From Vicinamibacterales bacterium (GTDB lineage Bacteria; Acidobacteriota; Vicinamibacteria; Vicinamibacterales; UBA8438): DNA of 64,000 nucleotides. The position numbers and the translations under genes were made by a program. How positions within the stretch are numbered: position 1 is the first letter of the stretch; each line of letters starts with the position of its first letter. Location: the NCBI GenBank assembly GCA_965242835.1, contig OZ251506.1, positions 13,179 through 77,178 on the forward strand, written 5' to 3'. The notes beneath the pieces were generated by a model. It was not told the DNA's origin and did no database searches. It was given only the letters and a program-made list of their open reading frames with translations. Of the stretch, positions 38,990 to 56,231 are shown piece after piece.

Positions 38990-38993
38990 TTGA

Positions 38994-41339
38994 ATGGCCG
39001 CCCCCGAGAGCAATCACCCGCACCTGGAACTGCGGAGGGAGGAACCGGTCACCGGACGCCGCCCGCGGTCAGGATTCCCTCGCACCGAGCCGCCGGACGC
39101 CCCTCGAAGGCACGGCGAGATTCTTGGAACTCGCCTGCGAGCGGCGCGGGCGGCCGCCGGAGAAGATCTCGGCGGTACCGACGACCGACGCCTCATCAAG
39201 ATCGAGTTGACGGACAAGGTGTCGCCGGAGGAGGTTGCGAGAGCAGCGAGCGGCATACAGATCGTGAGCCAGGAGGAAGGAATGCTGATACTCGCGTTCG
39301 CTACCGACGAGCAACTCGACGGGTTCGAAGCGAAACTCGCGAGCCTCGCCGCCGGCCGTCACGTCACCTACCGTGATCTGCTTTACGCGCTTCAGGGCTT
39401 CGATCGCTGGACCCCAGAGGACAGAACCGGCTGGGCGCTGAAGCGCGACGGATTCCCCGACGCGGAATCGTTCCTGCTCGACGTGGAGCTGTGGCCGATC
39501 GAGCGCGGCAATGACCTGTCTCGGTCGCGCGCCGCTTTCGAGAGCTGGGTGGCCGGGAATAGTGGACGCGTCGTCGATTCCGTTCAACAACCGTATCTGA
39601 CAATCTACCGGATTCGGTGCGCCCGGACGTTGGCAGACGATCTGCTCCGCTATAGAGACGTCCGCCTTGTCGATCTGCCGCCGCGCATCGGCCTGGAACG
39701 GGCGCTCGTCTCCACTGACGTTCAGGAGTTGGGGGACGTGCCCGCGCCGGCGGCGGATGCTCCGGGGATCGTCGTTCTCGACTCCGGCCTCGTTGCCGGT
39801 CATCCGCTCCTTGCGCCCGCGGTCGGCGATGCGCAGAGTTTTCTCGCCGGTGAATCCGAGACCGACGAGCATGGCCACGGAACGTTCGTGTCGGGAATCG
39901 CCCTCTATGACGACATCGCCGAGTGTATTCGTAACCGGCGTTTCGTGCCGGCGTTGAGGCTGTTCAGCGGCCGAATCCTGAATGACCGGAACGAAGGCGA
40001 TCCCCGCCTTATTGAAAACCAGGTTGACGAAGCCGTCAGGTACTTTGTGGACAATTATGATTGCCGGATATTCAACCTCTCGTACGGCAATACGAACAAG
40101 CCTTATCAGGGCCGGCATGTCGCGGGTCTGGCCGTGACGCTGGACGTTCTGAGTCGGGAGCTCGACGTGCTTTTCGTCGTTCCCACCGGAAACTACAACG
40201 GTGACGACATTGGCCCCCACGACTGGCGTGCCGAATACCCGCGCTATTTGACCGGAGAGACTTCGGTGCTGCTCGATCCGGACCCGGCCTTGAACGCACT
40301 TACGGTCGGCAGCCTCGCCCGCTACGAGCGGGGAGCGCCGAACCAGCGCTGGCCGGATGATCCCGCCTACCGTCCGGTCGCCGGATCGGATCAACCGTCG
40401 CCGTTCACCAGACGCGGACCATCGGTGAACGAGGCCATCAAACCCGATTTGGTGGACTACGGCGGAAATATGCTGGTCGATGTTCGTACCGGCTCGATGG
40501 CCGGACGCCAAGGCGTAGGAGAGTTGTCGGCCTCGCACGAATTTGCCACCGGTGGCTTATTCAGGGAGGACTCCGGCACGAGCTTCGCCGCGCCGCGCAT
40601 CGCGAATGCCGCCGCGCGAATCCTTGGGGAAACGCCTGGAGCAGGCGTGAACCTCTGCCGGGCCCTGCTGGTTTCCCACGCCCGTACGCCGGCGGCTTGC
40701 GCCAATCTGTTCACCACTAACAAGAATGCGCTTCGCAATCTGACCGGCTACGGTTTGGTCGACCGATCTGCGATCTATCGATCGATGGAGAACCATGTTA
40801 CGCTCTGGGCCGAGGAGTCGATAGAGGATCGTCATCATAATTTCTACGAAATACCGGTTCCCGATGAATTCTGGTCGGGGGGCAGGCGGGAACGAGAAGT
40901 GACCATAGCTCTCGCGTTCCGCCCGCCTGTGCGAACCACGAGAATTGACTACCGGGCGGTTGCCATCAGCTTCAAATTCATCCAGGCGGGCTCACTTGAT
41001 GAAGTTGCACGGTCCTTCAACGTCGCTGTTGACCGGGACACTGCCCCGAACATCAAGGAGCGTGATTCCGGGCGACGCATTTCGGAGACGGATCGGTCGC
41101 GCGGCACGGTGCAGGCGTCCACATGGAAGTTCGAGCAGCCCTCCAGGGCGACGCGTGAAAGTTCCTGGTTCGTAGTGGTCACCCGCAACGATCCTGCCTG
41201 GGGCGCGAACCTGTCATCCGAGCGGGAACCGTATGCCCTCACAGTTGTCCTCGCCGACCGCTTCGCCGAACAACCGCGACTGTACACGCGAATCGAAGCG
41301 CGACTCCGCGAACGGATTCGGGTGAGGAGAACGCGATGA
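38994..41339 (+). CDS. ietS: Subtilisin-like S8 serine peptidase, IetS-like
   Basis: Catalytic triad contexts: VVLDSGL (Asp), DEHGHGTFVSG (His), DSGTSFAAPRIA (Ser). 781 aa with no signal peptide. Confidence 0.75.
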   Translation: MAAPESNHPHLELRREEPVTGRRPRSGFPRTEPPDAPRRHGEILGTRLRAARAAAGEDLGGTDDRRLIKIELTDKVSPEEVARAASGIQIVSQEEGMLILAFATDEQLDGFEAKLASLAAGRHVTYRDLLYALQGFDRWTPEDRTGWALKRDGFPDAESFLLDVELWPIERGNDLSRSRAAFESWVAGNSGRVVDSVQQPYLTIYRIRCARTLADDLLRYRDVRLVDLPPRIGLERALVSTDVQELGDVPAPAADAPGIVVLDSGLVAGHPLLAPAVGDAQSFLAGESETDEHGHGTFVSGIALYDDIAECIRNRRFVPALRLFSGRILNDRNEGDPRLIENQVDEAVRYFVDNYDCRIFNLSYGNTNKPYQGRHVAGLAVTLDVLSRELDVLFVVPTGNYNGDDIGPHDWRAEYPRYLTGETSVLLDPDPALNALTVGSLARYERGAPNQRWPDDPAYRPVAGSDQPSPFTRRGPSVNEAIKPDLVDYGGNMLVDVRTGSMAGRQGVGELSASHEFATGGLFREDSGTSFAAPRIANAAARILGETPGAGVNLCRALLVSHARTPAACANLFTTNKNALRNLTGYGLVDRSAIYRSMENHVTLWAEESIEDRHHNFYEIPVPDEFWSGGRREREVTIALAFRPPVRTTRIDYRAVAISFKFIQAGSLDEVARSFNVAVDRDTAPNIKERDSGRRISETDRSRGTVQASTWKFEQPSRATRESSWFVVVTRNDPAWGANLSSEREPYALTVVLADRFAEQPRLYTRIEARLRERIRVRRTR

Positions 41340-41560
41340 CGGATTCCGCCCGCCGCCGTTACTGTCGGTACTGCCGGTTCACCATTGCCGTTCATGGGAA
41401 GTTGGCCGTGGCGTGTGTCCGGGCGGTCGGGGACGACGGCGTCGTCTACGAGGGGCAACTGAGCAACGAGCAGACCGGCGAGTATCACGGCTACCCGATG
41501 AAGAAGGGCGACGGCTTCGCCGGCTTCATCGGCGAGGAGTGGGAAAGGCGCGGAACATGA
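41336..41560 (+). CDS. Hypothetical 74-aa protein
   Basis: The start overlaps the ietS stop (ATGA). Sequence: MTDSARRRYCRYCRFTIAVHGK...GEYHGYPMKKGDGFAGFIGEEWERRGT. I recognise no family. Confidence 0.45.
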   Translation: MTDSARRRYCRYCRFTIAVHGKLAVACVRAVGDDGVVYEGQLSNEQTGEYHGYPMKKGDGFAGFIGEEWERRGT

Positions 41561-42420
41561 CGCTTCATCTATCGACCGCGTGGTGTCGGCAGCCCGGCGA
41601 CGAAGCCGCCGGATCGCCGGAATCGCCGGAAGACGAAGCTACCCTGAGCCGGATCGCCGTGAACGTCGATCGGATCCGGCTGACGCAGACGCTCGACGCC
41701 CGGACGATGCGCGTGCACGACGGCGCGAACCTCTCCGCCTACCGGCTGGCGGAGTGGCTGACCTGGAACTGGTGGCGTCTGCGTTGGGAGCCGCCGCACC
41801 AGAACGTGCAGCGCGATCGCCGGCCGGAGTGGCGGCAGGCGCACGAACTCGCGGGCATCGGCGGCGGCTGGCTCTGGCCGAACGTCACCGTCCGGTCTGA
41901 CGGTCTGCGCATCGGGTTGGACGCGCTGCCGTCGCCGGAGGTTGAGACCGAGCCGATGCGCTACCTGGCGAGTCGGAGCACGGCGGTTTCCGCGGAGTCG
42001 TTCGAGGCGGGGGTCGACGACTTCGTGGAGCGCGTGCTGGCGCGGCTGGACGAGTGCGCGCTCGGCGGCACGGACCTGGCCACCGCCTGGAAAGAACTGG
42101 CGGCCGAGCGCGCCGACCCGGAATCGGCCGCGTACCGGAAGGTCGAGGCGTTCCTCGGCCGCGACGTGGACGAGGCCGATCCGCGGCAGGTGGAACGGAT
42201 CATTCTGGACGGGCGGACGCTCGGCAGCGCGGCCATGTCGGAAGTGGCGGCCGCCGGGTTTCACACCGCCGACGAGCTCCGCGAGGAGGCGCGCAGCGCG
42301 GGCTTCGATACGAGCGCCGACAACCGGGCGCGGGTGCCTGTCCCGAGAAGCGTGATTTCCGGCACTACTCCATCGACAATGTATCCTGCCTTTGGACCTC
42401 GCGTCCCCTCCGCATACTGA
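41557..42420 (+). CDS. Hypothetical 287-aa protein
   Basis: The start overlaps the upstream stop (ATGA). Sequence: ...NLSAYRLAEWLTWNWWRLRWEPPH...GGGWLWPNVTVRSDG... I recognise no family. Confidence 0.5.
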   Translation: MTLHLSTAWCRQPGDEAAGSPESPEDEATLSRIAVNVDRIRLTQTLDARTMRVHDGANLSAYRLAEWLTWNWWRLRWEPPHQNVQRDRRPEWRQAHELAGIGGGWLWPNVTVRSDGLRIGLDALPSPEVETEPMRYLASRSTAVSAESFEAGVDDFVERVLARLDECALGGTDLATAWKELAAERADPESAAYRKVEAFLGRDVDEADPRQVERIILDGRTLGSAAMSEVAAAGFHTADELREEARSAGFDTSADNRARVPVPRSVISGTTPSTMYPAFGPRVPSAY

Positions 42421-42424
42421 CGCC

Positions 42425-43621
42425 ATGAAAAACACTTCCCCCGCCATGCCGTTCATCGCCCCGGCGACTCACGACGACCCGGCTCCGCCTACCGGTATGC
42501 GCCGTTCCGCGGAACCACCGGCCGTGGCGACTCCTCCGCCGTCGTCAGCCGCGTCCTTCGCGAAACGTTCTCTTCCCAGGCCATCCGCCATCTATTCGAT
42601 TCTCTGGCATTTCGCCGACGAGCGCCATCGCGTCTACCTGCAACGGGTCGCCGGACAGCCGCAGCCGTGGACCCGCGATCCCGTGCTGTCGACGTACCGA
42701 TTCACGAACGCCTTCCGCGCCGCCGACCGCGTGAGCCAGTACTTGATCCGCATGGCCTACTCGGACCACGACGCGGACGACGACACGCTGTTCCTCCGGA
42801 CCCTGCTGTTCAAGATCTTCAACCGGATAGACACGTGGGAGAGCATCGTCCGCGCCATCGGGCCGCCCACCGCCGACAGCTTCGACCACCGCGCCTGCGA
42901 AGCGCTCCTCACCGAACGCCGCCGAGCCGGCGGGCGAATCTACTCGGCCGCCTACATCATGCCGACGGGCGGAGACTCCGGATCGCCGAAGCACACGATG
43001 CACCTTCGACTGCTGCGCCGCATGCTCGACGAACGGCTTCCGGCGAAACTCAGACGTTCCCGATCCTTGAAGGACGCCTACGGCCTTCTCCTGGCGTATC
43101 CGACCCTGGGACCGTTTCTCGCGTTCCAGTACGCGATCGACCTCAACTACACGAAGCTGACCTGCCACTCCGAATCGAGCTTCGTCGTGGCCGGCCCCGG
43201 GGCCCTGGACGGGTTGTCGAAGTGCTTCGAATCCCTCGGGGAGTACTCCCCGGACGACGCGATCCTGTGGTTGTCCGACCGCCAGGACGACGAGTTCCGG
43301 CGCGCCGACCGGCCCTTCGACGGGCTGTGGGGACGGTCCCTGCGCCCCATCGACGTCCAGAACCTGTTGTGCGAGGTCTCCAAGTACACCCGCGCGACCC
43401 ACCCCGGGATCAAGGGCCGCGCCGGGCGTGGACGCATCAAGCAGAAGTTCACCGCGGCAGGTCCCTTGCCCCGCCCCTTCTTCCCTCCGAAATGGGAATT
43501 GAACGAGCGCGTCGAAAAGTGGATTGCGGAAAACGGCCACGCTCCGGGCGAACGCCGGCGGCCCCTCCAGACGGATCTGCCGCTCGTCATGACGGCTTCC
43601 GGTAGCCCAGATCCCGGTTGA
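42425..43621 (+). CDS. Putative DNA base hypermodification protein (5-hmdU DNA kinase helical domain / aGPT-pyrophosphorylase-like family)
   Basis: ...IYSILWHFADERHRVYLQRVAGQPQPWTRDPVLSTYRFTNAFRAADRVSQYLIRMAY...LFLRTLLFKIFNRIDTWESI...PFLAFQYAIDLNY... This matches my memory of proteins annotated as 'nucleotide kinase domain-containing / DNA base hypermodification' proteins. It was not searched. Confidence 0.5.
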   Translation: MKNTSPAMPFIAPATHDDPAPPTGMRRSAEPPAVATPPPSSAASFAKRSLPRPSAIYSILWHFADERHRVYLQRVAGQPQPWTRDPVLSTYRFTNAFRAADRVSQYLIRMAYSDHDADDDTLFLRTLLFKIFNRIDTWESIVRAIGPPTADSFDHRACEALLTERRRAGGRIYSAAYIMPTGGDSGSPKHTMHLRLLRRMLDERLPAKLRRSRSLKDAYGLLLAYPTLGPFLAFQYAIDLNYTKLTCHSESSFVVAGPGALDGLSKCFESLGEYSPDDAILWLSDRQDDEFRRADRPFDGLWGRSLRPIDVQNLLCEVSKYTRATHPGIKGRAGRGRIKQKFTAAGPLPRPFFPPKWELNERVEKWIAENGHAPGERRRPLQTDLPLVMTASGSPDPG

Positions 43622-44684
43622 GCAGGTCCAGGGTCACCATGCCGCCTCCATGACGGCCCAGTTCCCGGAACACGCGGAATCCCTCGAGAATGGCCTCTTC
43701 CCACTGCCACAACGGAACCTTGTCGACCTCGAACCCCCTCACGAAACCCTGGATGGTCTTGAGCAGGTCGTAGTCGACACGGTCGATTCCCTCGTAATAG
43801 CCCACTTCCTTCGCTCTGCTGAACACGGTCGCCGACACCGCCTCTTCGATGATGCCGGCCCGCGCGCCGTCCTCGCTTTCGTCCACTTCCGAATTGCTCT
43901 TGCGCTTGCACTTCAACAGACCGCGCAGGATCGGCGACCATCCGAGATATACGGCATATGAGAAATGGAACACGTCGTGGAACCTGTAGCCGTCGGGAGT
44001 GCCGAAATTGTCCGTCAGGCGATCTCCCAGATTGAGACCGTTGCAGCGCAGGATGACGACCGGCCTGTCGCCGCTTCTCGTCTCCCGAAACTCGACCTTC
44101 AGCTTGCGCGGAATCCGCTCCTCCTCCGGGAACTCGCTGTCGAACAGCGGCGCCCCCTTTCGATCCCGCGGCCATCGGCTCCCGGTCTTCTCGACGTTCT
44201 TCCGGGCCGCATCTTCAAGGCAGACGTTCGAACCGGCCGCGACTCGAACAAGAGCCCGCCAGACCGCCGCCAATCCCGGTGACGCATCGGCGTTCGAGTC
44301 CCGTCCCAACGTCTCGATCAGCGCGCCGACAGCGGCGCCGAGCGCAAGCGCATTCTCGACACCTTCTCCATTCGATCGCTCCTGGTCCGCGGCCGCGTCG
44401 TCCAGCTTCGTCACGTCGAACGGCTTCAGAACCGCCGTCAGGCGAGCGAAGTACCACAGAAAATCTCCGAGCTCCTCGCCAAGCCGTTCGGGGGCAATCG
44501 GATAGGCCGCGTCCTCCCGGCTTCTTTTCTTCAGCTCCGCGAGAATGCCGCCGGTTTCACCGAACAGACCCGCGGCCAGAAGCTCGACGTGCTTCGGCTT
44601 CCCGGCCAACCGGTCCGTTCTCTCGGCGCCCTCACGATACCCCACGAACCACGACGCGGCATCCATGCCTTCGTCCTCCTCCAT
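43587..44684 (-). CDS. MazG-like nucleoside triphosphate pyrophosphohydrolase with an extra C-terminal domain
   Basis: ...LLAAGLFGETGGILAELKK...LGEELGDFLWYFARL (MazG EExxE/D-type helix pair). The ATG at 44684 overlaps the vapC stop (TGATG); an alternative ATG lies at 44708. The C-terminal ~200 aa are unassigned. Confidence 0.6.
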   Translation of the reverse strand: MEEDEGMDAASWFVGYREGAERTDRLAGKPKHVELLAAGLFGETGGILAELKKRSREDAAYPIAPERLGEELGDFLWYFARLTAVLKPFDVTKLDDAAADQERSNGEGVENALALGAAVGALIETLGRDSNADASPGLAAVWRALVRVAAGSNVCLEDAARKNVEKTGSRWPRDRKGAPLFDSEFPEEERIPRKLKVEFRETRSGDRPVVILRCNGLNLGDRLTDNFGTPDGYRFHDVFHFSYAVYLGWSPILRGLLKCKRKSNSEVDESEDGARAGIIEEAVSATVFSRAKEVGYYEGIDRVDYDLLKTIQGFVRGFEVDKVPLWQWEEAILEGFRVFRELGRHGGGMVTLDLLNRDLGYRKPS

Positions 44685-45100
44685 CACTCGAGCATCGGCA
44701 TCATGCACCCTTCCGCGCGCGCCGCGGCGCGAAGGGCCCGGTCCAGCGTCGCCAGCGGTAGTCCCCGCCGCATTGCGAGTTCGAGGTACGTCGCATCATA
44801 GGCGGTAAGGTCATGCGCCGCCGCGAGATCGAGGACCGGACCCCAGGCCCGGGTCGTCGAAATCGGATCGACGTCAATCGGCAGCGCATCGAGCTGCATG
44901 CGCAGCCGCGGCCACTCTTCCGTGCCGACCCGGCGGCGGCGCGTCGCGGCGAGAAGGGCGTTGGCCGTCTCCGTCGCCCACAATGCCGGAACCAACGCCC
45001 GGTCGTCGCCCAGCGCGTCCCGCAACCGGCCCGTCGCGCTGGTCGCTTCGTCCCGAAACACCCACGCCATGGTGACCGAGCAATCCAGAACGAACACCAT
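44684..45100 (-). CDS. vapC: PIN-domain toxin (VapC-type)
   Basis: MVFVLDCSVTMAWVFRDE...TETANALL...AHDLTAYDATYLELAMRRGLPLATLDRAL (acidic PIN residues in the expected contexts). Confidence 0.8.
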   Translation of the reverse strand: MVFVLDCSVTMAWVFRDEATSATGRLRDALGDDRALVPALWATETANALLAATRRRRVGTEEWPRLRMQLDALPIDVDPISTTRAWGPVLDLAAAHDLTAYDATYLELAMRRGLPLATLDRALRAAARAEGCMMPMLE

Positions 45101-45864
45101 CAGTAACGCCGCCCTTCGTCGATCATGCGGCGCACCGACATCCCGCCCAGGCTGTGTGACCGTGCGAATTCCTCGAGACCGCGGACCGCTTCCCGAACCG
45201 CGCGCGCGGGGTGTGGTTGAAATGGCGGGATTCTTCGCCGCTTGTCCCACGGCAGGCCCATGAGTTTCCTGTCCCACTCCAGCGGGTCGTTACGACAGCC
45301 AGCTTCATCGAGGCTACGCAGCCACGCCACGCACTCGGCCACCAGATCTTCCGAAAAATTACACTTGTGGCCGGGTCCGCCCTTGCAGACCTCCCTCCTG
45401 AAGGATATCGGAATGTCGGGGCCGTGGCCGCCCCAATAGACGAAATCGTCGCTGACGAGAACACGATCCACCCGGGTATCGTGATCGATGTTTCGACAGT
45501 TCGGTGTTCCGTCCTCGAGACTGTGGTGGGAGTTCGCCTGGATCCACTTGCCGGTGGCGTCGTTCCGGTGATAAATGTTGTCACCGAACGCGTTGCGAAT
45601 ACTGACGTGCAGGTCGGGTCGCTTCTCTCGGAAGCGGAGATCCCGCCAGTACTCGTTGAACGTCATCTTCTCGGTCACGCGCATGGCGAAGACGACGTGC
45701 GCGTCTCGTTTGTGCTTCTTCGACCCGGTTCCCACGATCCAGTCGCCGATCTGGGCCGTTCGCCGTATCTCCGGCTTGCACGTGGCCAGCGTGCAGAATC
45801 CGTGGAACGGATTCGGAGCGAATCCAAAATCTCTCGCCACTACGTACGAATACAGTTTAGGCAC
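45100..45864 (-). CDS. Nmad2-like (nucleotide-modification-associated domain 2) protein fused to an antitoxin-like C-terminal tail
   Basis: N-terminus: (M)PKLYSYVVARDFGFAPNPFHGFCTLATCKPEIRRTAQIGDWIVGTGS... The last ~40 aa (...AVREAVRGLEEFARSHSLGGMSVRRMIDEGRRY) look like the C-terminus of the small antitoxins that precede this kind of PIN toxin. GTG start at 45864; the stop overlaps the vapC ATG. Confidence 0.5.
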   Translation of the reverse strand: MPKLYSYVVARDFGFAPNPFHGFCTLATCKPEIRRTAQIGDWIVGTGSKKHKRDAHVVFAMRVTEKMTFNEYWRDLRFREKRPDLHVSIRNAFGDNIYHRNDATGKWIQANSHHSLEDGTPNCRNIDHDTRVDRVLVSDDFVYWGGHGPDIPISFRREVCKGGPGHKCNFSEDLVAECVAWLRSLDEAGCRNDPLEWDRKLMGLPWDKRRRIPPFQPHPARAVREAVRGLEEFARSHSLGGMSVRRMIDEGRRY

Positions 45865-46351
45865 TCGCCTCTCCTCGTCCGCACGAATAGCGCGGGATCA
45901 TCCGATAGCCGTGCATCGAACCGTCCTGATTGTACCACGCCCCCGATTTGCCGTTGATGGCGTCGATGATGCTCTCACCGTTCCAGCCGACCACGGCGTC
46001 CGCATGGCGATCGAGAGCGGGCGGCAACTCGCAGTCACGCTCGCCCCTCGCCCAGACGCCTACGATCCGCTTGCCCTGCTTCCGGGCGTAGTCGATTTCC
46101 CATTCCACCCATTCGCTGCGCCTGGTTCTTTCCGAGACGTACACCACCAGGCAACCGGCCTGCCGTATGCGCGGAGCGAGTATCTCGGACTTGATGTACT
46201 GCTCGCTGCGCGCGTTGTTCGGGTTGTCCGCGGTTATGGAATAGTCGCGACACGTCATGCCGTGCCGTCCGAGCAGGTCCTTGAGATCCGCCAGGCCGGC
46301 GTCGTCCTCGTGCCGGTGGCTGATGAACACGTTCCTGATCTGTTCCGCCAT
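45857..46351 (-). CDS. TIR-domain protein (DUF1863/ThsB-like)
   Basis: MAEQIRNVFISHRHEDDAGLADLKDLL...CLVVYVSERTRRSEWVEWEIDYARKQGKRIVGV (a conserved Glu in a W..E context). Confidence 0.7.
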   Translation of the reverse strand: MAEQIRNVFISHRHEDDAGLADLKDLLGRHGMTCRDYSITADNPNNARSEQYIKSEILAPRIRQAGCLVVYVSERTRRSEWVEWEIDYARKQGKRIVGVWARGERDCELPPALDRHADAVVGWNGESIIDAINGKSGAWYNQDGSMHGYRMIPRYSCGRGEASA

Positions 46352-46355
46352 CGCC

Positions 46356-46838
46356 TCACTCTCCTTCCTGCCGCTCCAGATTCGTCAGGTCCTCGACGCC
46401 GGCGATCTTCGCCAGCAAGCGGTTGTAGTTACGCAAGTCCGCCTGCAGATGTTCCAGCTGCTCCCGGAATTCCCTTCGCTTCTCCGTGTCCCGGAAAGCG
46501 CCCGACAGAGACTCCCGGTGCCACTTCGCGGTGAACGGGCGCACCACCTGGTTCAGGACGGGTATCGCCACCTTGCTGAATTGCACCGTACCCTTGCCGC
46601 GCCGCCGCAGGATTTCGCGGGTGGTGGGGAACAGCGAGTGGACGCTGTCGAGGGCGGTCTGTTCGTCGCCGACGCTCGCCGGCAGCGGTTGCGTGACGAT
46701 CCGGGTCAGCATCTCGACGTACAGTTCCCACGCGGCGTTTCGGTCTTCGTCGTTGAAGTCGATCTCGACCGTGACCCACTTGGGGCCCAGGCGGACCTTC
46801 GCCAAGCCGAACCGCTCGAAATGATCTCCCAGGTTCAT
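46356..46838 (-). CDS. Hypothetical 160-aa protein, first gene of the TIR sub-block
   Basis: Its stop lies 4 nt from the TIR start. It looks helical, with no TM segment and no family that I recognise. Confidence 0.5.
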   Translation of the reverse strand: MNLGDHFERFGLAKVRLGPKWVTVEIDFNDEDRNAAWELYVEMLTRIVTQPLPASVGDEQTALDSVHSLFPTTREILRRRGKGTVQFSKVAIPVLNQVVRPFTAKWHRESLSGAFRDTEKRREFREQLEHLQADLRNYNRLLAKIAGVEDLTNLERQEGE

Positions 46839-46923
46839 CGCGTCCCTCCAATCTTTCGCGAGGATTCCTGCTCATCCGCCTACTGTGCACCGAGTCCCAA
46901 CAGGCGCTCGAGCGTCGCTGGGT

Positions 46924-47706
46924 TCAGTGAGCCGGGACATTGCGACTTTCCTCGCTTTCCGCGTTCTGGTGGAGATCCATCAGGAGTCTCCGCATGGCGG
47001 CCTTGGATCCGTTCAGATATGCATACGACGAATGAACGGTCAGGCCGCCGATTCTGCTGCCGACCTCGCGCACGACGCAGCACTGGAGTCTGGCGAGACC
47101 CAGCAGGTTGCCCGGAACCTTGTAGCGGTAGTCGTGGCTTCGATACAGCGCGGTCAAGTGCACCGCATCCTGGAACAGCTTGAATGTAAGATGGGAAAGA
47201 CAGGGACCTCCCCTGCGGCGCGTCCCATCCTGCGCGGGGCTGTAGAGAGACATGTCGTATTCGCCTTCAGCAACACCGAGATCATAGCACGATCTCTTTG
47301 GCCCCGGTTTTTTGATTTCGCTCTTCATCTTGTCGATCAACTGTTCCAAGGGGTTGACGTGGCCGCCGCTCGCATCCGACCGTCGGACCAGGCGATGAGC
47401 GTAGGTGCCCCAGTGATTCGACGGATGCTTCTTGATCACGGGATAGACTGTATCGGGATAGTAATCCAGAACCCCAGCAAGACCGCGGTGGCGGTACTCA
47501 TGGCCGGGAAAGATCGTCTCCGCAACCGTGTGCATCGAAAATTGTTTCTCGTCCTTCAGGAACTTGTCGATAATCGAGTGACTTCCGCCAGCCGTCGGCG
47601 ATTCTATCGCCAAGGTCAGATTCAGCATGGGCCCGTGGACCAGCAGATGGTCCGCCGCCTGCATCCAGGCGTCCAGGCGCGTATCGGTTTCGATTAGTTT
47701 CGCCAT
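46924..47706 (-). CDS. Thymidylate synthase / dNMP hydroxymethylase-fold protein
   Basis: ...RRGGPCLSHLTFKLFQDAVHLTALYRSHDYRYKVPGNLLGLARLQCCVVREVGSRIGGLTVHSSYAYL aligns by eye to the ThyA core PCH..FQF.....L.CQLYQRS.D..LG.PFNIASYALL......G......H..GDAHIY, including the catalytic Cys. The ATG at 47706 (or GTG at 47709) overlaps the upstream stop. Confidence 0.6.
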   Translation of the reverse strand: MAKLIETDTRLDAWMQAADHLLVHGPMLNLTLAIESPTAGGSHSIIDKFLKDEKQFSMHTVAETIFPGHEYRHRGLAGVLDYYPDTVYPVIKKHPSNHWGTYAHRLVRRSDASGGHVNPLEQLIDKMKSEIKKPGPKRSCYDLGVAEGEYDMSLYSPAQDGTRRRGGPCLSHLTFKLFQDAVHLTALYRSHDYRYKVPGNLLGLARLQCCVVREVGSRIGGLTVHSSYAYLNGSKAAMRRLLMDLHQNAESEESRNVPAH

Positions 47707-48338
47707 CACGCCGCATCCTCCGTCAGCACCAGCACGTCCCGCAGGTGCTGGATCATGAAGGCGTCATCGAGCCAGGCATGGCCGGCGTCGGCCCACGCCG
47801 CGCCCCAACTGTTCCGGATGAGGAAGCGGCGCGCCGTGTGCGTCGTACCGATTCCCACGGCCGCGACCGCGTGGAGTCCTCTGACCGGGCCGGCCGAGGA
47901 GATGACCCACGGCGCAGTCGGAGCATAGAAGGCGTCCGTCGTCGAAATGCCCAGAACGGGGACGTGGCCGGCGTCGAGAAGCGCTTCGACGTCATCCGGA
48001 CTCTGCTGCGCCGACGCGCTCCGTCGCCGATACAGGGTCAGATTCGCGGGCGGCGTCCACGCGGGCGGCGGTTCGCTCTCCTGATACGGGCAATCCGATT
48101 CGACAGGTTGTCCGGGGTCGAGAAGGGCGCGGGAGACGTTCGGGAAGTCGACGCCCGTGGGGGAGTCGGTGCTTCCCGAAGCGAAGTGGTGCAGGTACTC
48201 GGGCGACAGCGCCACCGTCGATCCGCGTGCATGTTCGTGCACCGTCGTGGACGCGTGCGCGAGGCAGGTCGGACGCGCTCCCTGATCGCGAACCGGACCG
48301 AGCAGCGGGCGGTAGTCGTGGCGGATGGTGACGTTCAT
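47706..48338 (-). CDS. Papain-like (C1 family) cysteine peptidase, cytoplasmic
   Basis: LGPVRDQGARPTCLAHAST (Cys), GLHAVAAVGIG (His), FLIRNSWGAAWADAGHAWL (Asn / NSWG). No signal peptide. The ATG at 48338 overlaps the upstream stop (ATGA). Confidence 0.7.
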   Translation of the reverse strand: MNVTIRHDYRPLLGPVRDQGARPTCLAHASTTVHEHARGSTVALSPEYLHHFASGSTDSPTGVDFPNVSRALLDPGQPVESDCPYQESEPPPAWTPPANLTLYRRRSASAQQSPDDVEALLDAGHVPVLGISTTDAFYAPTAPWVISSAGPVRGLHAVAAVGIGTTHTARRFLIRNSWGAAWADAGHAWLDDAFMIQHLRDVLVLTEDAA

Positions 48339-49318
48339 GCAACCCGTTCCAGGGCGCCGCGTCTGGTGCGCCGCGCCCAACCTTCACGTTCTTTTCCGTG
48401 CCCGTCGACGTCGATCCGGATGCGGGCCAGGGTGGCGCGGCTCCACGGCCGGACGTGTTCGAAGACGAGTTCATGCACGCCGGGCGCCTTGAACCTCACG
48501 TACGACACCCGTGACGATCGCGCGCCATACGCGTGATCGAGATCCGGCGTCCGCTCGCCGACGACGTCGACCTCGGCGTCCGCGTCGACGAGACGCCAGA
48601 CGTAACCGGCGGAGGCGTGGTCCTGGACGTGGACGGCGAACAGGTCGTCGGGGCCTGCTTCAATGAACGTCTCGCTGTCGGCCGCCGTCAGCGCCCACAC
48701 GTCAGCCCACGAGTTCGTGATCGATCCCGCGGGCGCCAACTCGTGCTTCAGCGTCTTCACCGACGTTTTCTGGAGTTGGCGGACTTCGGGGCGCGTGAGA
48801 ACCCCGGACGTGACCAAGGCCCAGCACGCGGCTTGGTAGCTGATGCCCAACCGCAGGGACAGTTGATAGATGTTGGAGGGCAGGCGGAGCTTGTCCCTGG
48901 TCCACTCATGACGCTGCGCGGACGCGAGAAGGAGGCGCTTCGGAGCCAGAAGCTCGGCGGCGAACGCATCCGCCGCCGCCTCGTGCGTCGGTCTCGACGC
49001 CGGTGCGTTCCGTCCCGCGAACCCGACCGCCTCGTCGAGGCTCGTTCGGTGTCCGAGCCACAGATGGCCGAGTTCGTGGGCGACCGTGAACCGTTGCACC
49101 GGCAACCCGAGTTTCGAGGTCACGATGATTCCGCGCGCCTGGTCGTTGACGGTGATGAACGCGCCCCACAGCTTGTCCAGCGGCCGGAACAGCAGCGGGA
49201 TGCCGCGGTCGGCGACGGCCCCGATGACGTCGAAGCTGGTCCGGGCGCCGATCGGCGACTCGTCGAACACGGCCGCGGCCCCGCTGACGGCGCGCAGTAT
49301 CTCCGTGCGCCTGGTCAT
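48335..49318 (-). CDS. ImmA/IrrE-type zinc metallopeptidase fused to a chagasin-like (I42) cysteine-peptidase-inhibitor domain
   Basis: The N-terminal half has FTVAHELGHLWLGH (HExxH) plus ...EAAADAFAAELLAP. The C-terminal ~110 aa (48338-48676) read ...LFAVHVQDHASAGYVWRL...YGARSSRVSYVRFKAPGVHELVFEHVRPWS... Compare the chagasin motifs NPTTG(F/Y)xW, G.GG and RPW. Confidence 0.6.
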   Translation of the reverse strand: MTRRTEILRAVSGAAAVFDESPIGARTSFDVIGAVADRGIPLLFRPLDKLWGAFITVNDQARGIIVTSKLGLPVQRFTVAHELGHLWLGHRTSLDEAVGFAGRNAPASRPTHEAAADAFAAELLAPKRLLLASAQRHEWTRDKLRLPSNIYQLSLRLGISYQAACWALVTSGVLTRPEVRQLQKTSVKTLKHELAPAGSITNSWADVWALTAADSETFIEAGPDDLFAVHVQDHASAGYVWRLVDADAEVDVVGERTPDLDHAYGARSSRVSYVRFKAPGVHELVFEHVRPWSRATLARIRIDVDGHGKEREGWARRTRRGALERVA

Positions 49319-49656
49319 TTCGTCTTCCTCGATCTCAGGAATTGCGCGAATCGCAGCACCTCGCCCCGATCCGTGTCCGACAGATCGGTGGCGGCGCGCG
49401 CCAGCAGGCGGACCGACTCCGGCTGAGAGGCTTCCTGGCCATGACCCGCGAGGCTCTCCATCGTGGTCTGGTACAGCTTGGCCAGTCGGCCGAGTTCTTC
49501 GACGCTGACACGCCGGGCGCCGCTCTCGATCAGCGAGATCGCCGACCGCGGCACACCGAGATGGCCGGCGACCTCCTCCTGGGAGAATCCGCGGTACTCG
49601 CGCTCCTCTCTGAGCCGTTTTCCGAGGACGTTCCGAGTCGTTCCCCGGTCGTTCAT
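49315..49656 (-). CDS. XRE-family helix-turn-helix transcriptional regulator
   Basis: ...LGKRLREEREYRGFSQEEVAGHLGVPRSAISLIESGARRVSVEELGRLAKLY... It overlaps both neighbours by ATGA. Confidence 0.85.
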   Translation of the reverse strand: MNDRGTTRNVLGKRLREEREYRGFSQEEVAGHLGVPRSAISLIESGARRVSVEELGRLAKLYQTTMESLAGHGQEASQPESVRLLARAATDLSDTDRGEVLRFAQFLRSRKTK

Positions 49657-50015
49657 GAATCGACCTCCTGAGAAATGCGCTCCGCCGGGTCGGAACCTCC
49701 CTTGCCGAAGACGAGATGCCGGATCGTGTCTTCGATGCCGGCGTATCCGCCGACGCGAATGCGCTTGATGTCGAAAGGGCAGCCGTGCTTCTCGAAGATC
49801 GGCGCCATCCGGGCGACCGTCTTGGAGTCGACGACAGGCATGGTCCCCCATGGATCCGCTCCAGCCGCGCCGTTGCCGAGAACCTGGACGTCCCAGCCCG
49901 CCTGTTCTTTGGCCCACCACTCGCGGAGCTCCGCCGCCAACCGCATGCGGGGGGCGGCCACGTCGCTCTGCGCGGGTTCGGGCGGGGGGCCGAACACGAT
50001 CTTGGGCTGCAACAT
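49653..50015 (-). CDS. Hypothetical 120-aa protein with a carrier-protein-like (ACP/PCP) helix-II motif
   Basis: ...GTMPVVDSKTVARMAPIFEKHGCPFDIKRI...YAGIEDTIRHLV compares with E. coli ACP ...[28 protein letters not shown]...TTVQAAIDYI. It lies 98 bp downstream of a PPTase gene. The resemblance is weak and is an inference. Confidence 0.35.
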   Translation of the reverse strand: MLQPKIVFGPPPEPAQSDVAAPRMRLAAELREWWAKEQAGWDVQVLGNGAAGADPWGTMPVVDSKTVARMAPIFEKHGCPFDIKRIRVGGYAGIEDTIRHLVFGKGGSDPAERISQEVDS

Positions 50016-50113
50016 CCGGCATCCGTTCGATAATCAGACACTCTACAGAAAAAACGTCCGATGGTCAAACCATCGCGATCTGCACCCAAGTTCGCTCACG
50101 GAGAAGAACGAGT

Positions 50114-50761
50114 TCACACGCCGGCCGGCCACAGGGCGGCCGAGGCGATCCATGACGGAACGGCCCTGGAACAGCGCATGTCGAGCGCGACGCCGCATGC
50201 CCGGGCGACGCCGCGACAGCGAACGGGGCTGATCGAGGTCCACGACACGGCGACTTCCTCAAGACCGAGCGGACGGCCGAGAATCGGGTGCAGGGCCTTG
50301 AAGGCGGCTTCCTTGACGGAGAAGAGAACGACCCGTCCACCGGCCTCCGGCATCGACGCCCACGGTTGTTCGCCGACGCCCAGTCCGCGGAGGTTCGGGA
50401 CGGGCTTCGCGTCCAGGCGTTCCACGTCGATGCCGATCGACCTCGCTCGATCGGCGCCGGCGACAGCGGCGGCCACGGTCGTGCCCTTGTGACTCACGCT
50501 GCCGGTGCAGCCTTGCGGCCACTCGCGAGCTCCGGAGGCCAACCGCGCCGGCTCGACGGCAGGAAGACCCATGCTCGCGAGGAGATCCGCCAAGCACTTC
50601 CCGGTTGCGTCCCGCTGGGCCTCCATCAGGACCCGCTCGCGGGCGGTCGGCGGAACGTCGCGAGGACGTTGGAGCCAATGGGCGAACGACCCGCCTGAAA
50701 TCACGAGCTCCGGCGCCAAACGCCGGAGCTCGTCGATCAGCCGGTCCGATTGGAGATGCAT
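50114..50761 (-). CDS. 4'-phosphopantetheinyl transferase (EntD/Sfp-type)
   Basis: ...GSVSHKGTTVAAAVA...SIGIDVERL...VLFSVKEAAFKALHP (the GxDxE and FSxKEAxxK motifs). Confidence 0.75.
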   Translation of the reverse strand: MHLQSDRLIDELRRLAPELVISGGSFAHWLQRPRDVPPTARERVLMEAQRDATGKCLADLLASMGLPAVEPARLASGAREWPQGCTGSVSHKGTTVAAAVAGADRARSIGIDVERLDAKPVPNLRGLGVGEQPWASMPEAGGRVVLFSVKEAAFKALHPILGRPLGLEEVAVSWTSISPVRCRGVARACGVALDMRCSRAVPSWIASAALWPAGV

Positions 50762-50824
50762 GCTCGAATCACCGGGGATCGCCGCGCGGTTTTCCCGACT
50801 GGCGCAGCAACACGCCCGCCGGAA

Positions 50825-51050
50825 TCCCGGGCGTCAGGGCTGTCGGGGTCGGCGTCCATGAGCTCGTCGATCCGCGCGAGGGCGGCTTCGTAGTCGGCTT
50901 CGGTCCGCACCGGGCGGGTGTCGGCCATCTTTCACACCTCCTCGACGTCCCGGCGTCGTACTCCGTGTGCGTGCCCACGAACCGCGCCGAAGCGACAGTC
51001 CGGCCGCGGGCCCGCGCCACCTTCAGGCGTCGGCCGATCATGAGACGGCC
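50825..51050 (-). pseudogene. HigB/HigA toxin-antitoxin remnant
   Basis: HigB-like C-terminus ...RLMIGRRLKVARARGRTVASARFVGTHTEYD (frame of ORF 50769..51122), followed by a HigA-like N-terminus MADTRPVRTEADYEAALARIDELMDADPDSP that degenerates before any HTH. Confidence 0.5.
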
Positions 51051-51127
51051 CCTTGGCGTTCGGCGCGGGAAGCGTTGCGGACGTTCGCTCGGTGTAGACT
51101 CGTCATCAGGTGTCGACGCCATATGCC

Positions 51128-51712: not shown

Positions 51713-51801
51713 TCAGGAACGGAACGCGGCGCTCGCCCGCCTCTCGGCGAGCTCGTCAACTACGATTCCATGCTACGATTGTTTCCGAAGAGGACATCTG
51801 C

Positions 51802-56092: not shown

Positions 56093-56231
56093 GGACGCGG
56101 CCGCGGCGGCCGGGTCGAGCGCGGCGGCGCGGCGGCGACGCCCGTACGCCTCCGCAGCCCGGACCCGGCTTCGCGGCGCAGCCCCGCCGCGGGCGGCGGC
56201 TCGGCCGCGGCGTCCGTACGGAGAACGGCCG

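What the first reader, a model, noticed from the sequence alone, without database searches (positions are those of the whole stretch)
42425..47709. Thymidine-hypermodification-type enzyme set on a bacterial chromosome, converging from two operons
Within 5.3 kb I read four proteins:
- a thymidylate-synthase / dNMP-hydroxymethylase-fold protein (46924-47706, catalytic Cys context retained);
- an Nmad2-like protein (45100-45864);
- a MazG-like NTP pyrophosphohydrolase (43587-44684);
- on the opposite strand, a protein resembling the 5-hmdU DNA kinase / aGPT-pyrophosphorylase family (42425-43621).

This toolbox is established for phage DNA hypermodification: a hydroxymethylase makes 5-hm-pyrimidine, and kinase and transferase enzymes then elaborate it on DNA. 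Here there are no phage structural genes, and the genes are embedded in a methylation-dependent defence locus (DISARM).

The options are host self-marking by a non-methyl base modification, nucleotide-pool manipulation as an abortive defence, or a cargo remnant.
Basis: partly seen in the sequence, partly recalled or inferred. Interest (0 to 1): 0.7.

Follow-up and report, generated by a model that had tools for sequence, protein, structure and literature searches.

The report
DISARM-embedded pyrimidine-nucleotide defence cassette
The four "phage DNA-hypermodification-like" genes are real, but they belong to a larger 12-gene, probably inducible anti-phage cassette inserted in a DISARM locus; it is related to the recently validated E. 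coli system DS-4, whose mechanism is still unknown.

Summary
All four protein calls hold at the stated coordinates. Three are confirmed by Pfam: HMUDK_hel (the old aGPT-Pplase clade 1) at 6e-94, MazG_C at 5e-77 with a weak N-terminal MazG match, and Nmad2 at 2e-74. The fourth has a thymidylate-synthase fold with the catalytic Cys, RSxD and Asn retained.

Comparative genomics resolves two modules. Cassette A (PPTase to TS-like) is colinear in 39 genomes from many phyla. Block B (TIR–Nmad2) is adjacent in 60 of 80 Nmad2 loci. Both use the same convergent pair, MazG-MazG_C and HMUDK_hel. The window, like one Vicinamibacterales genome, carries the A+B composite.

TIR, Nmad2 and HMUDK_hel are homologous to three of the five genes of DS-4 (DeWeirdt et al., Science 2026), which was shown to protect E. 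coli. The cassette repeatedly sits between drmA/B and drmMI/D.

Two enzymes that define phage thymidine hypermodification are absent: the P-loop 5-hmdU DNA kinase and the clade-2 amino-acid:DNA transferase.

Verdict: this is a new composite variant of a known but mechanistically unsolved defence kind.

The parts
50114..50761 (-). 4'-phosphopantetheinyl-transferase-like protein (215 aa), the first gene of cassette A.
   Evidence: Pfam 4PPT_N at 2.2e-7 and ACPS at 1.7e-6. The GiD.E and fS.KEa..KA motifs are conserved in 22 homologues. Present in 28 of 39 TS-like loci.
50025..50070 (-). Promoter-like site (TTGACC-17-TAGAGT) bracketed by two copies of a palindromic motif, GTYYGAHNNTCGRAC. Probably the operator of the XRE repressor.
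   Evidence: One search gives the promoter-like site. One search finds only 2 motif matches in 64 kb, against 0.09 expected. One search finds the same motif, often visibly as two copies, upstream of the 120-aa gene in most related loci across phyla.
49653..50015 (-). Conserved 120-aa protein of unknown family with an invariant DSK motif.
   Evidence: No Pfam hit. Present in 26 of 39 TS-like loci. Conservation pattern. No detectable similarity to E. coli ACP by hhalign.
49315..49656 (-). XRE-type HTH repressor (113 aa).
   Evidence: Pfam HTH_31 at 5e-15 and HTH_3 at 1.7e-12. Present in 35 of 39 TS-like loci.
48335..49318 (-). ImmA/IrrE (M78) metallopeptidase fused to a chagasin-type (I42) cysteine-protease inhibitor domain (327 aa).
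   Evidence: Pfam Peptidase_M78 at 7.8e-14 and Inhibitor_I42 at 9.6e-8. PADLOC capP at 4.4e-15. The HExxH and RPW motifs are conserved. Present in 36 of 39 loci.
47706..48338 (-). Papain-like C1 cysteine peptidase (210 aa).
   Evidence: Pfam Peptidase_C1 at 7.8e-8. The Cys/His/Asn triad motifs are conserved in 36 homologues. Present in 36 of 39 loci.
46924..47706 (-). Divergent thymidylate-synthase-fold enzyme (260 aa) with the catalytic Cys, RSxD and Asn retained.
   Evidence: The family has 543 members.
46356..46838 (-). 160-aa protein of unknown family, the first gene of block B.
   Evidence: No Pfam, PADLOC or PDB assignment. Homologues lie just upstream of the TIR gene in 22-23 of 80 Nmad2 loci.
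45857..46351 (-). ThsB-like TIR protein (164 aa).
   Evidence: Pfam ThsB_TIR at 1.3e-23. PADLOC ThsB PDLC00418 at 2.5e-61. 33% identity over the full length to the DS-4 TIR, E 3e-27. Adjacent to Nmad2 in 60 of 80 loci.
45100..45864 (-). Nmad2 protein (254 aa) with a ~55-aa C-terminal tail. Predicted PUA-like (ASCH/EVE/YTH-type) fold.
   Evidence: Pfam Nmad2 at 1.8e-74. 52% identity to the DS-4 Nmad2, E 9e-55. Model and Foldseek results. Alignment.
44684..45100 (-). PIN-domain protein (138 aa).
   Evidence: Pfam PIN at 2e-8. Present at the same position only in the closest relatives, L001/L087 and L088.
43587..44684 (-). MazG-like NTP pyrophosphohydrolase fused to a MazG_C domain (365 aa).
   Evidence: Pfam MazG_C at 5e-77 and MazG at 0.006. 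PHROG 229 at 8.8e-34. Present in 33 of 39 TS-like loci and 38-39 of 80 Nmad2 loci.
42425..43621 (+). HMUDK_hel / aGPT-Pplase clade 1 protein (398 aa). It is convergent with MazG, with a 35-nt 3' overlap.
   Evidence: Pfam PF18723 at 5.8e-94. 23% identity to the DS-4 homologue, E 2e-22. Phage homologues are annotated as clade 1.

Best explanation
The region 42425-50761 is one composite anti-phage defence cassette of the DS-4 kind, acquired horizontally and embedded in a class 1 DISARM locus.

**Control (inferred from domain paradigms)**
- The XRE repressor binds the two palindromes that bracket the promoter.
- Its partner ImmA/IrrE (CapP-like) protease relieves repression on infection or DNA damage.
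- The chagasin domain fused to that protease keeps the next-encoded papain-like peptidase inactive until then.

**Effector chemistry (inferred)**
- The TS-fold enzyme makes a C5-substituted pyrimidine deoxynucleotide. Uracil-type is suggested by the invariant Asn.
- MazG/MazG_C reshapes the pyrimidine dNTP pool by pyrophosphohydrolysis, and possibly by phosphorylation.
- Replicating phage DNA therefore acquires, or lacks, the wrong pyrimidine.
[quoted passage not shown] It then acts on that base in DNA.

**Second arm (inferred)**
- Nmad2 has a PUA-like modified-base or nucleotide reader fold. It works with the ThsB-like TIR, and here also with PIN, as a sensing and abortive arm.

**Shown versus inferred**
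- Shown: domain identities, operon structure, cross-phylum synteny, DISARM embedding and homology to DS-4.
- Inferred: every biochemical step.
For: **Homology to DS-4**
- DS-4 (TS + adenylate/dNMP kinase + HMUDK_hel + TIR + Nmad2) was experimentally validated in E. coli (PMC13092281).
- Window TIR, Nmad2 and HMUDK_hel match their DS-4 counterparts at E 3e-27, 9e-55 and 2e-22.
- Both systems show TIR-then-Nmad2 start/stop overlap: 7 nt in DS-4 and 8 nt in the window.

**Synteny**
- Cassette A is colinear in 39 genomes.
- TIR-Nmad2 are adjacent in 60 of 80 Nmad2 loci.
- The same A+B composite occurs in L088 at 60-87% amino-acid identity.

**Substitution pattern in Nmad2 loci**
- HMUDK_hel (19 loci) and a UDG-superfamily protein (14 loci) are mutually exclusive.
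- MazG_C and TS are near-exclusive alternatives.
- This points to one pyrimidine-pool enzyme plus one DNA-glycosylase-like enzyme.

**Component properties**
- The TS fold has invariant Cys, RSxD and Asn.
- Nmad2 weakly but consistently resembles PUA-like readers: ASCH, EVE, YTH and the McrB N-terminal domain.

**Regulation**
- The M78 protein hits capP.
- A conserved dual palindrome sits at a promoter-like site.

**Defence context**
- The cassette lies between DrmA/B and DrmMI/D in the window and in L001/87, L086 and L088/L129; one or other DISARM gene lies beside it in L022, L081/91, L085 and L090.
- IetAS and a VapBC-like pair are neighbours.
Against: - No biochemical data exist for any component, and the DS-4 mechanism is unknown.
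- The one DS-4 assay row I read, on lambda, shows a modest effect: about 0.9 log EOP and small plaques.
- The TS-like protein is only a remote relative of both canonical and DS-4 TS. Its N-terminal, folate-side half is divergent and partly low-confidence in the model.
- There is no P-loop kinase. The MazG_C 'kinase' role is only a literature prediction.
- Cassette A and block B each occur alone, so their coupling here is inferred.
- Nmad2 fold matches are weak (best E 8e-3, TM 0.3-0.48).
- The chagasin-peptidase and operator-repressor interactions are untested.
Confidence: 0.5

Rival explanations
1. Counter-hypermodification. The cassette targets phages that themselves use non-canonical pyrimidines (dU, 5-hmdU or hypermodified T).
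- MazG destroys their special dNTPs.
- The glycosylase-like HMUDK_hel, or UDG in other loci, attacks their bases.
- The PUA-like Nmad2 reads those bases and triggers TIR and PIN.
- The phage DNA is thereby re-exposed to the surrounding DISARM.
For: - HMUDK_hel relatives occur in hypermodifying phages.
- PUA-like folds commonly read modified bases.
- UDG and HMUDK_hel are interchangeable.
- The cassette sits systematically inside DISARM, a restriction-like system that base modification can evade.
Against: - A biosynthetic TS-fold enzyme with an intact catalytic Cys has no obvious role in a purely degradative or sensing scheme.
- DS-4 acted on lambda, which has canonical DNA.
- Cassette A lacks Nmad2 and TIR altogether.
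Confidence: 0.2
2. Pure depletion or abortive infection with no new base.
- MazG hydrolyses dNTPs, TIR consumes NAD+ and PIN cleaves RNA.
- The TS-like protein and HMUDK_hel are regulatory or binding subunits.
- Cassette A and block B may be independent neighbours.
For: - Nucleotide depletion and TIR NADase activity are established defence principles (my own knowledge).
- A and B each occur alone.
- A dCTP-deaminase gene lies next to cassette A in L083/L084.
Against: - The TS catalytic residues are invariant across 23 aligned family members.
- Block B sits inside one tightly packed operon and shares a single MazG_C/HMUDK_hel pair.
- The composite is conserved in L088.
- DS-4 likewise joins TS and HMUDK_hel with TIR-Nmad2.
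Confidence: 0.17
3. Host self-marking. The genes install a non-methyl pyrimidine modification on the host chromosome as an epigenetic self label.
For: - The enzyme families are shared with phage DNA hypermodification.
- The cassette lies next to a modification-based system.
Against: - There is no P-loop 5-HMUDK, no clade-2 transferase and no tailoring enzymes.
- The operon is under an XRE/ImmA-type inducible switch.
- It contains TIR and PIN abortive-type genes.
- Its distribution is patchy and island-like.
- No cognate nuclease that would read such a mark was found.
Confidence: 0.08
4. Decaying cargo or a prophage remnant with no current function.
For: - GC content dips to 62-68%, against 72-78% in the flanks.
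- Transposase fragments lie near some related loci.
Against: - All 13 ORFs are intact, with overlapping start and stop codons.
- Catalytic motifs are conserved.
- The architecture is conserved across more than 10 phyla.
- No phage structural genes were seen.
Confidence: 0.03

Closest known systems
DS-4 ('NTTI'), a five-gene E. coli anti-phage system validated by DeWeirdt, Mahoney & Laub, Science 2026 (PMC13092281).
   Same: - It has a ThsB-like TIR immediately followed by Nmad2, with overlapping stop and start codons.
- It has an HMUDK_hel / aGPT-Pplase clade 1 protein and a TS-superfamily enzyme with Cys, RSxD and Asn.
- Its mechanism is unknown.
- Homology to the window proteins: TIR 33%, Nmad2 52% and HMUDK_hel 23% identity.
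   Different: - The DS-4 TS is a canonical PF00303 protein. The window TS-like belongs to a separate, very divergent clade.
- DS-4 has a P-loop adenylate/dNMP kinase, where the window has MazG-MazG_C with no similarity to it.
- DS-4 lacks the PPTase, 120-aa, XRE, M78-I42 and C1 genes, the 160-aa protein and PIN.
- Gene order and strand layout differ.
Unvalidated DefensePredictor candidate systems containing MazG, MazG-C, NMAD, UDG, dUTPase or aGPT-Pplase (Fig. 6F and S12 of PMC13092281).
   Same: - They share the same domain vocabulary.
- The block-B type loci found here (TIR-Nmad2-MazG_C with HMUDK_hel or UDG) match those descriptions.
   Different: - Those candidates are predictions without sequences that I could compare.
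- None is described with the PPTase / XRE / M78-I42 / C1 / TS-like cassette.
Phage thymidine hypermodification pathway (Lee et al., PNAS 2018, cited from my own knowledge; NAR 2021, PMC8989533).
   Same: A TS-family enzyme and an aGPT-Pplase-family helix-hairpin-helix protein; in my recollection of these pathways (not read here), also a nucleotide pyrophosphatase that excludes the canonical dNTP.
   Different: - The window has no P-loop 5-hmdU DNA kinase.
- Its aGPT-Pplase is clade 1, not the catalytically characterised clade-2 amino-acid:DNA transferase.
- It has no PLP, radical-SAM or FAD enzymes.
- It is cellular, repressor-controlled and linked to TIR and PIN.
Thoeris (ThsB TIR + ThsA effector).
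   Same: A ThsB-family TIR, with PADLOC ThsB at 2.5e-61.
   Different: - No ThsA (SIR2/SLOG or Macro/TM) is present in the window.
- Nmad2 occupies the partner position.
CapH/CapP (XRE HTH + ImmA/IrrE protease), the damage-responsive regulators of CBASS and other defence operons (named from my own knowledge).
   Same: - An XRE HTH gene overlaps an M78 protease gene.
- The protease matches PADLOC capP at 4.4e-15.
- Palindromes lie at the promoter.
   Different: - The protease carries a C-terminal chagasin (I42) domain.
- It is followed by a papain-like peptidase.
- The regulated cargo is different.

Membership tests
DS-4-type defence system (PMC13092281) | ThsB-like TIR gene immediately upstream of an Nmad2 gene. 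| tested here: met
   BLASTP of the window proteins against DS-4 gives TIR at E 3e-27 and Nmad2 at E 9e-55. The genes overlap by 8 nt.
DS-4-type defence system (PMC13092281) | HMUDK_hel ('putative DNA base hypermodification protein'). | tested here: met
   PF18723 at 5.8e-94. E 2e-22 against DS-4 WP_087900470.1.
DS-4-type defence system (PMC13092281) | Thymidylate synthase (PF00303-type). | tested here: inconclusive
   The TS fold and catalytic motifs are present. There is no PF00303 hit. Similarity to the DS-4 TS is not significant: E 0.017 by BLASTP and hhalign probability below 1%.
DS-4-type defence system (PMC13092281) | P-loop adenylate/dNMP kinase. | tested here: not met
   No locus protein has a Walker A motif. 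MazG-MazG_C shows no similarity to the DS-4 kinase.
DS-4-type defence system (PMC13092281) | Demonstrated protection against phage. | not testable with these tools
   This needs plaque assays with the cloned cassette.
Phage thymidine hypermodification pathway (PMC8989533) | P-loop 5-hmdU DNA kinase. | tested here: not met
   No kinase Pfam hit and no Walker A motif between 41.3 and 50.8 kb.
Phage thymidine hypermodification pathway (PMC8989533) | Clade-2 aGPT-Pplase (amino-acid:DNA transferase). | tested here: not met
   The only Pfam hit is PF18723. Phage homologues are annotated as clade 1.
Phage thymidine hypermodification pathway (PMC8989533) | dUMP hydroxymethylase (TS family). | tested here: inconclusive
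   A TS-fold enzyme with Cys and Asn is present. Its substrate, cofactor and product are unknown.
Phage thymidine hypermodification pathway (PMC8989533) | Viral genome context with PLP, radical-SAM or FAD tailoring enzymes. | tested here: not met
   The cassette sits on a chromosome inside DISARM. No such domains were found.
Thoeris | ThsB TIR protein. | tested here: met
   PADLOC ThsB at 2.5e-61 and Pfam ThsB_TIR at 1.3e-23.
Thoeris | ThsA effector (SIR2/SLOG or Macro/TM). | tested here: not met
   No ThsA hit among the ten locus proteins scanned with PADLOC; PPTase, the 120-aa protein and the HTH were scanned with Pfam only.
CapH/CapP-like regulatory pair | XRE HTH repressor gene adjacent to an M78 ImmA/IrrE protease gene. 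| tested here: met
   HTH_31 at 5e-15. M78 at 7.8e-14 and capP at 4.4e-15. The genes overlap by 4 nt.
CapH/CapP-like regulatory pair | Repressor cleavage and derepression on DNA damage or infection. | not testable with these tools
   Only a conserved palindrome pair at a promoter-like site could be shown.
DISARM class 1 (context, not the finding itself) | DrmA, DrmB, DrmD and DrmMI. | tested here: met
   PADLOC: DrmD E 0, DrmMI E 0, DrmA 1e-261 and DrmB 3e-80. DrmC was not examined.

The most novel reading that the evidence does not exclude
Bacteria run a repressor-controlled version of the phage base-modification toolkit as an immune weapon.
- On infection, the TS-fold enzyme and MazG/MazG_C make and favour a 5-substituted dUTP-type nucleotide.
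- This nucleotide is built into replicating phage DNA.
- The clade-1 aGPT-Pplase (or UDG in sister systems) and the PUA-like Nmad2 then recognise that corrupted DNA and fire TIR and PIN.
- The 8-gene cassette A would be a previously undescribed, widespread defence system with a protease-inhibitor safety catch. Its genes are PPTase, the 120-aa protein, XRE, ImmA-chagasin, papain-like peptidase, TS-like, MazG/MazG_C and aGPT-Pplase1.
Probability: 0.22. Interest if true: 0.9.

Novelty: new variant of a known kind. Interest (0 to 1): 0.62.

Why it matters
DS-4 showed in 2026 that genes which look like base-hypermodification enzymes can protect bacteria, but nobody knows how.

This locus and its relatives contribute three things:
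- **A parts list.** There is a core pair (MazG-MazG_C facing aGPT-Pplase clade 1). There are interchangeable partners: TS in place of MazG_C, and UDG in place of aGPT-Pplase1. There are also two alternative control or sensing modules: XRE / ImmA-chagasin / papain-like peptidase, and TIR-Nmad2.
- **A pointer to the chemistry.** These substitution rules point to uracil/thymine-type chemistry on both the nucleotide pool and the DNA, and they turn the mechanism into a set of direct experiments.
- **An apparently undescribed system.** Cassette A occurs in at least 39 species-level genomes across many bacterial phyla and one archaeon. I found no paper in the searchable literature that describes it as a system.

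If the host really synthesises a modified pyrimidine to sabotage phage DNA, that would be a new immune principle. It would also be a source of new DNA-modifying enzymes.

Tried and rejected
- **Sequence search of PDB.** Searching the TS-like, MazG-MazG_C, HMUDK_hel and 160-aa proteins against PDB sequences gave nothing, or only chance hits to designed Kelch repeats and RAP.
- **TS-like versus DS-4 TS.** hhalign of the TS-like family against the DS-4 TS was not significant. I therefore do not call them orthologues.
- **MazG_C as a second MazG domain.** hhalign of the N-terminal half against the C-terminal half showed no similarity.
- **The 120-aa protein as an acyl-carrier-like substrate of the PPTase.**
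  - The invariant DSK motif is suggestive.
  - There is no PP-binding Pfam hit and no hhalign similarity to E. coli AcpP.
  - I keep this only as speculation.
- **The Nmad2 C-terminal tail as a VapB-like antitoxin for the downstream PIN.**
  - The tail has no Pfam hit.
  - The only support is co-occurrence: in the L001/L087 relative, a 254-aa tailed Nmad2 (P0133) is followed by PIN.
- **Rfam.** A scan of 36-52 kb found nothing.
- **Source record.** Looking up the source record via P0001 returned nothing on record.
- **Viral fold search for Nmad2.** It found nothing significant; one EVE-domain protein appeared at low probability.
- **Literature.** A search for 'Nmad2' and a search combining 'chagasin' with 'anti-phage' returned no relevant paper. 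Burroughs et al. 2015 (PMC4678834) is not held in the library.

Full report
**1. The observation**

The window is GC-rich (72-78%), with a dip to 62-68% between about 38 and 51 kb.

- **42425-43621(+).** Pfam assigns it to PF18723 HMUDK_hel (E 5.8e-94).
- **43587-44684(-).** Pfam assigns it to PF18722 MazG_C (5e-77), with a weak N-terminal MazG match (E 0.006). PHROG 229 'MazG-like pyrophosphatase' matches at 8.8e-34.
- **45100-45864(-).** Pfam assigns it to PF18753 Nmad2 (1.8e-74).
- **46924-47706(-).** It has no Pfam hit, but several results place it in the thymidylate synthase (TS) superfamily.
  - It partially matches a thymidylate-synthase NCBIfam model (6.8e-10).
  - Its family of 543 members gives an HMM that hits only thymidylate synthases in the PDB.
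  - An AlphaFold model (pLDDT 74.7, pTM 0.80) gives 394 Foldseek hits at E<1e-3, and every one of the 50 best listed is a TS-superfamily enzyme.
  - The top hits are flavin-dependent dCMP hydroxylases (9iqc, 9iqu), followed by ThyA and the CMP hydroxymethylase MilA.
  - Cys169, R189-S-H-D192 and N200 are invariant. They align to L. casei C198, R218-D221 and N229.
  - From established TS enzymology, Asn at that position goes with uracil and Asp with cytosine.

**2.

The minus-strand genes form one tightly packed operon running from 50761 down to 43587. Junctions between successive genes are +98, -4, -4, -4, -1, +85, +4, -8, -1 and -1 nt. The genes, in order, are:

- a 4'-phosphopantetheinyl-transferase-like protein;
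- a conserved 120-aa protein;
- an XRE HTH protein;
- an ImmA/IrrE M78 peptidase fused to a chagasin-type I42 inhibitor domain (PADLOC capP 4.4e-15);
- a papain-like C1 peptidase;
- the TS-like enzyme;
- a 160-aa protein of unknown family;
- a ThsB-like TIR (PADLOC ThsB 2.5e-61);
- Nmad2;
- a PIN protein;
- MazG-MazG_C.

HMUDK_hel converges on MazG with a 35-nt 3' overlap. No protein in the locus has a Walker A motif.

**3. Context**

PADLOC identifies the following neighbours:

- DrmD (27620-32554);
- DrmMI (32615-37195);
- IetA and IetS (37982-41339);
- DrmA (51770-56092);
- DrmB (56232-58106).

An RHH+PIN pair lies at 51110-51712.

**4. Related loci**

*Nmad2 relatives.* Eighty genomes encode Nmad2 relatives.

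- The TIR gene lies directly upstream on the same strand in 60 of them.
- MazG-MazG_C is present in 38-39, HMUDK_hel in 34-35, and the 160-aa protein in 22-23.
- Combinations are informative:

| Combination with Nmad2 | Loci |
|---|---|
| TIR + MazG_C + HMUDK_hel | 19 |
| TIR + MazG_C + a UDG-superfamily protein | 14 |
| TIR + HMUDK_hel + a PF00303 TS, without MazG_C (the DS-4 architecture) | 8 |

- HMUDK_hel and UDG never co-occur.
- TIR + SLOG cluster2/3 pairs and dCTP-deaminase-like genes are further recurrent neighbours.

*TS-like relatives.* Thirty-nine genomes encode TS-like relatives. They span Acidobacteriota, Alpha-, Beta- and Gammaproteobacteria, Binatia, Planctomycetota, Thermodesulfobacteriota, Myxococcota, Bacteroidota and Actinomycetota, plus one Thermoplasmata archaeon.

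- The order is colinear: PPTase, 120-aa protein, HTH, M78-I42, C1, TS-like, MazG-MazG_C, then the convergent HMUDK_hel.
- Counts out of 39 are: HTH 35, M78-I42 36, C1 36, MazG_C 33, HMUDK_hel 33, PPTase 28 and the 120-aa protein 26.
- Only one of these genomes (L088 = L129, a Vicinamibacterales MAG) also carries the block of 160-aa protein, TIR, Nmad2 and PIN. It sits in exactly the window's position, at 60-87% amino-acid identity.
- L001/L087 (Binatia) has that block plus MazG-MazG_C and the convergent HMUDK_hel, but no cassette A.

The window is thus a rare composite of two modules that share one MazG_C/HMUDK_hel pair.

*DISARM embedding.* The cassette lies between DrmA/B and DrmMI/D in L001/87, L086 and L088/L129, and one or other DISARM gene lies beside it in L022, L081/91, L085 and L090.

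*Conserved motifs.* Catalytic motifs are conserved in all of the following:

- PPTase: GiD.E and fS.KEa..KA;
- C1 peptidase: the Cys/His/Asn triad;
- M78: HExxH;
- I42: RPW.

**5. Regulation**

A promoter-like site (TTGACC-17-TAGAGT, 50068-50040) lies between the PPTase gene and the 120-aa gene.

- It is bracketed by two copies of GTYYGAHNNTCGRAC, at 50056-50070 and 50025-50039.
- These are the only two matches in 64 kb, against 0.09 expected.
- The same palindrome occurs, often visibly as two copies, at the equivalent place in most related loci across phyla. Examples are TGTTTGACTTTCGAACA and GTTCGATTTTCGAAC.

I infer that this is the operator of the XRE repressor. By analogy with ImmR/ImmA and CapH/CapP (established paradigm, my own knowledge), I infer that the M78 protease derepresses the operon on infection or DNA damage. 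The fusion of a papain inhibitor to that protease, directly upstream of a papain-like peptidase, suggests a second, post-translational safety catch. This too is inference.

**6. Literature**

- **DeWeirdt, Mahoney & Laub (Science 2026, PMC13092281).**
  - One Table S7 row shows about a 0.93-log EOP reduction with small plaques on lambda.
  - No mechanism was studied.
  - The paper also lists unvalidated candidates with aGPT-Pplase, MazG, MazG-C ('predicted nucleotide kinase'), dUTPase, NMAD and UDG.
- **Window versus DS-4.** TIR is 33% identical (3e-27), Nmad2 52% (9e-55) and HMUDK_hel 23% (2e-22). The TS match is only marginal (0.017). There is no similarity between MazG-MazG_C and the DS-4 kinase.
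- **Lee et al. (NAR 2021, PMC8989533).** They showed that the P-loop 5-HMUDK and clade-2 aGPT-Pplases carry out thymidine hypermodification. The window protein is clade 1.
- **Payne et al. (bioRxiv 2024).** They describe embedding of defence genes in DISARM but do not mention these families.
- **Gaps.** I found no paper describing the PPTase / XRE / M78-I42 / C1 / TS-like cassette.

**7. Nmad2**

- The family is large, with 6581 hits. It has many invariant polar residues, including R11, D12, C24, C29, D41, E65, D95, H113, H114 and D129.
- The model (pLDDT 71.9) matches PUA-like readers weakly but consistently. The matches are MJECL36, ZmASCH, the McrB N-terminal m5C reader, the THYN1 EVE domain and YTH domains, with best E 8e-3.
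- I treat 'PUA-like modified-base or nucleotide-binding fold' as a lead, not a result.

**8. Mechanism**

*Shown:*
- domain identities;
- a single operon;
- the conserved operator;
- modular synteny;
- DISARM embedding;
- homology to a validated defence system.

*Inferred:*
- The cassette is an inducible effector set acting on uracil/thymine-type deoxynucleotides and on DNA.
- The substitution rules argue for one pool enzyme plus one DNA-glycosylase-like enzyme. The rules are TS+kinase in place of MazG-MazG_C, and HMUDK_hel in place of UDG.
- The invariant TS catalytic residues argue that a C5-substituted pyrimidine nucleotide is actually made.

My preferred model is synthesis or enrichment of a wrong pyrimidine that corrupts replicating phage DNA. 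DNA-level recognition by aGPT-Pplase1 follows, with TIR-Nmad2 (and here PIN) as a sensing and abortive arm.

Rivals are:
- counter-hypermodification of phages that use odd pyrimidines;
- simple depletion;
- self-marking;
- a dead remnant.

They are weighed in the rival-explanations section.

**9. Verdict**

It is a defence system, not a complete hypermodification pathway.
- Novelty: a new composite variant of a known kind. It includes an 8-gene cassette that I could not find described as a system in the literature I could search.

Noticed in passing
window 37150-37720: The intergenic stretch between DrmMI and IetA is rich in repeats. It holds three copies of a ~91-nt unit and two of a ~120-nt unit, plus several long inverted repeats. 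It may be an insertion scar or a REP-like element at the edge of the embedded island.
   Followed up: partly
window 37982-41339: A complete IetA/IetS (AAA ATPase + S8 subtilase) defence pair is embedded in the same DISARM gap (PADLOC IetA 6.6e-92, IetS 4.8e-259).
   Followed up: partly
window 41336-42420: Two ORFs without any family assignment (74 aa and up to 335 aa) lie between IetS and HMUDK_hel on the plus strand. Homologues lie on the HMUDK_hel side of the cassette in L081/L091/L113, L088/L129 and L090/L097: adjacent to it in L088 and L090, about 2.7 kb away in L081/L091. It is unclear whether they belong to IetAS, to the cassette or to neither.
   Followed up: partly
window 51110-51712: An RHH (CopG) + PIN pair, typical of a VapBC-type toxin-antitoxin module, lies between the cassette and DrmA.
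   Followed up: no
window 27620-37195 and 51770-58106: The DISARM genes are split into DrmD-DrmMI and DrmA-DrmB by about 14.5 kb of lower-GC embedded genes. The cassette or its variants lie between the same DISARM halves in L001/87, L086 and L088/L129, with one half seen beside it in four other loci. This suggests a preferred insertion site.
   Followed up: partly
window 43587-43621; L082-L086: MazG-MazG_C and HMUDK_hel are always convergent, with overlapping 3' ends. The overlap is 35 nt in the window and 86-92 nt in L082, L085 and L086 by their called genes. It may allow antisense or termination coupling.
   Followed up: no
L001-L080 (Nmad2 loci): HMUDK_hel and a UDG-superfamily protein are mutually exclusive partners of TIR-Nmad2-MazG_C (19 versus 14 loci, never together). 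Separate TIR + SLOG cluster2/3 pairs and a dCTP-deaminase-like membrane protein recur nearby.
   Followed up: partly
L112 (Thermoplasmata archaeon MAG JAKIWQ010000009.1): Most of cassette A is present in an archaeal MAG at 30-51% identity: PPTase, the 120-aa protein, HTH, M78-I42, C1, TS-like and HMUDK_hel. No MazG_C match was found. This implies inter-domain transfer, or possibly a binning artefact.
   Followed up: no
window 45100-45270 (Nmad2 residues 200-254): The ~55-aa C-terminal tail ending ...MSVRRMIDEGRRY occurs only in the closest Nmad2 relatives (15 proteins). Of these I checked the context of one (P0133, the L001/L087 genome), and a PIN gene follows it there; the PIN-bearing L088 relative matches Nmad2 over 75% identity but I did not check its tail. 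The tail may be an antitoxin-like tether for PIN, but it has no Pfam hit.
   Followed up: partly
window 50737-50928: A 63-aa ORF on the minus strand overlaps the PPTase start. It has no Pfam hit and may be a gene fragment.
   Followed up: no
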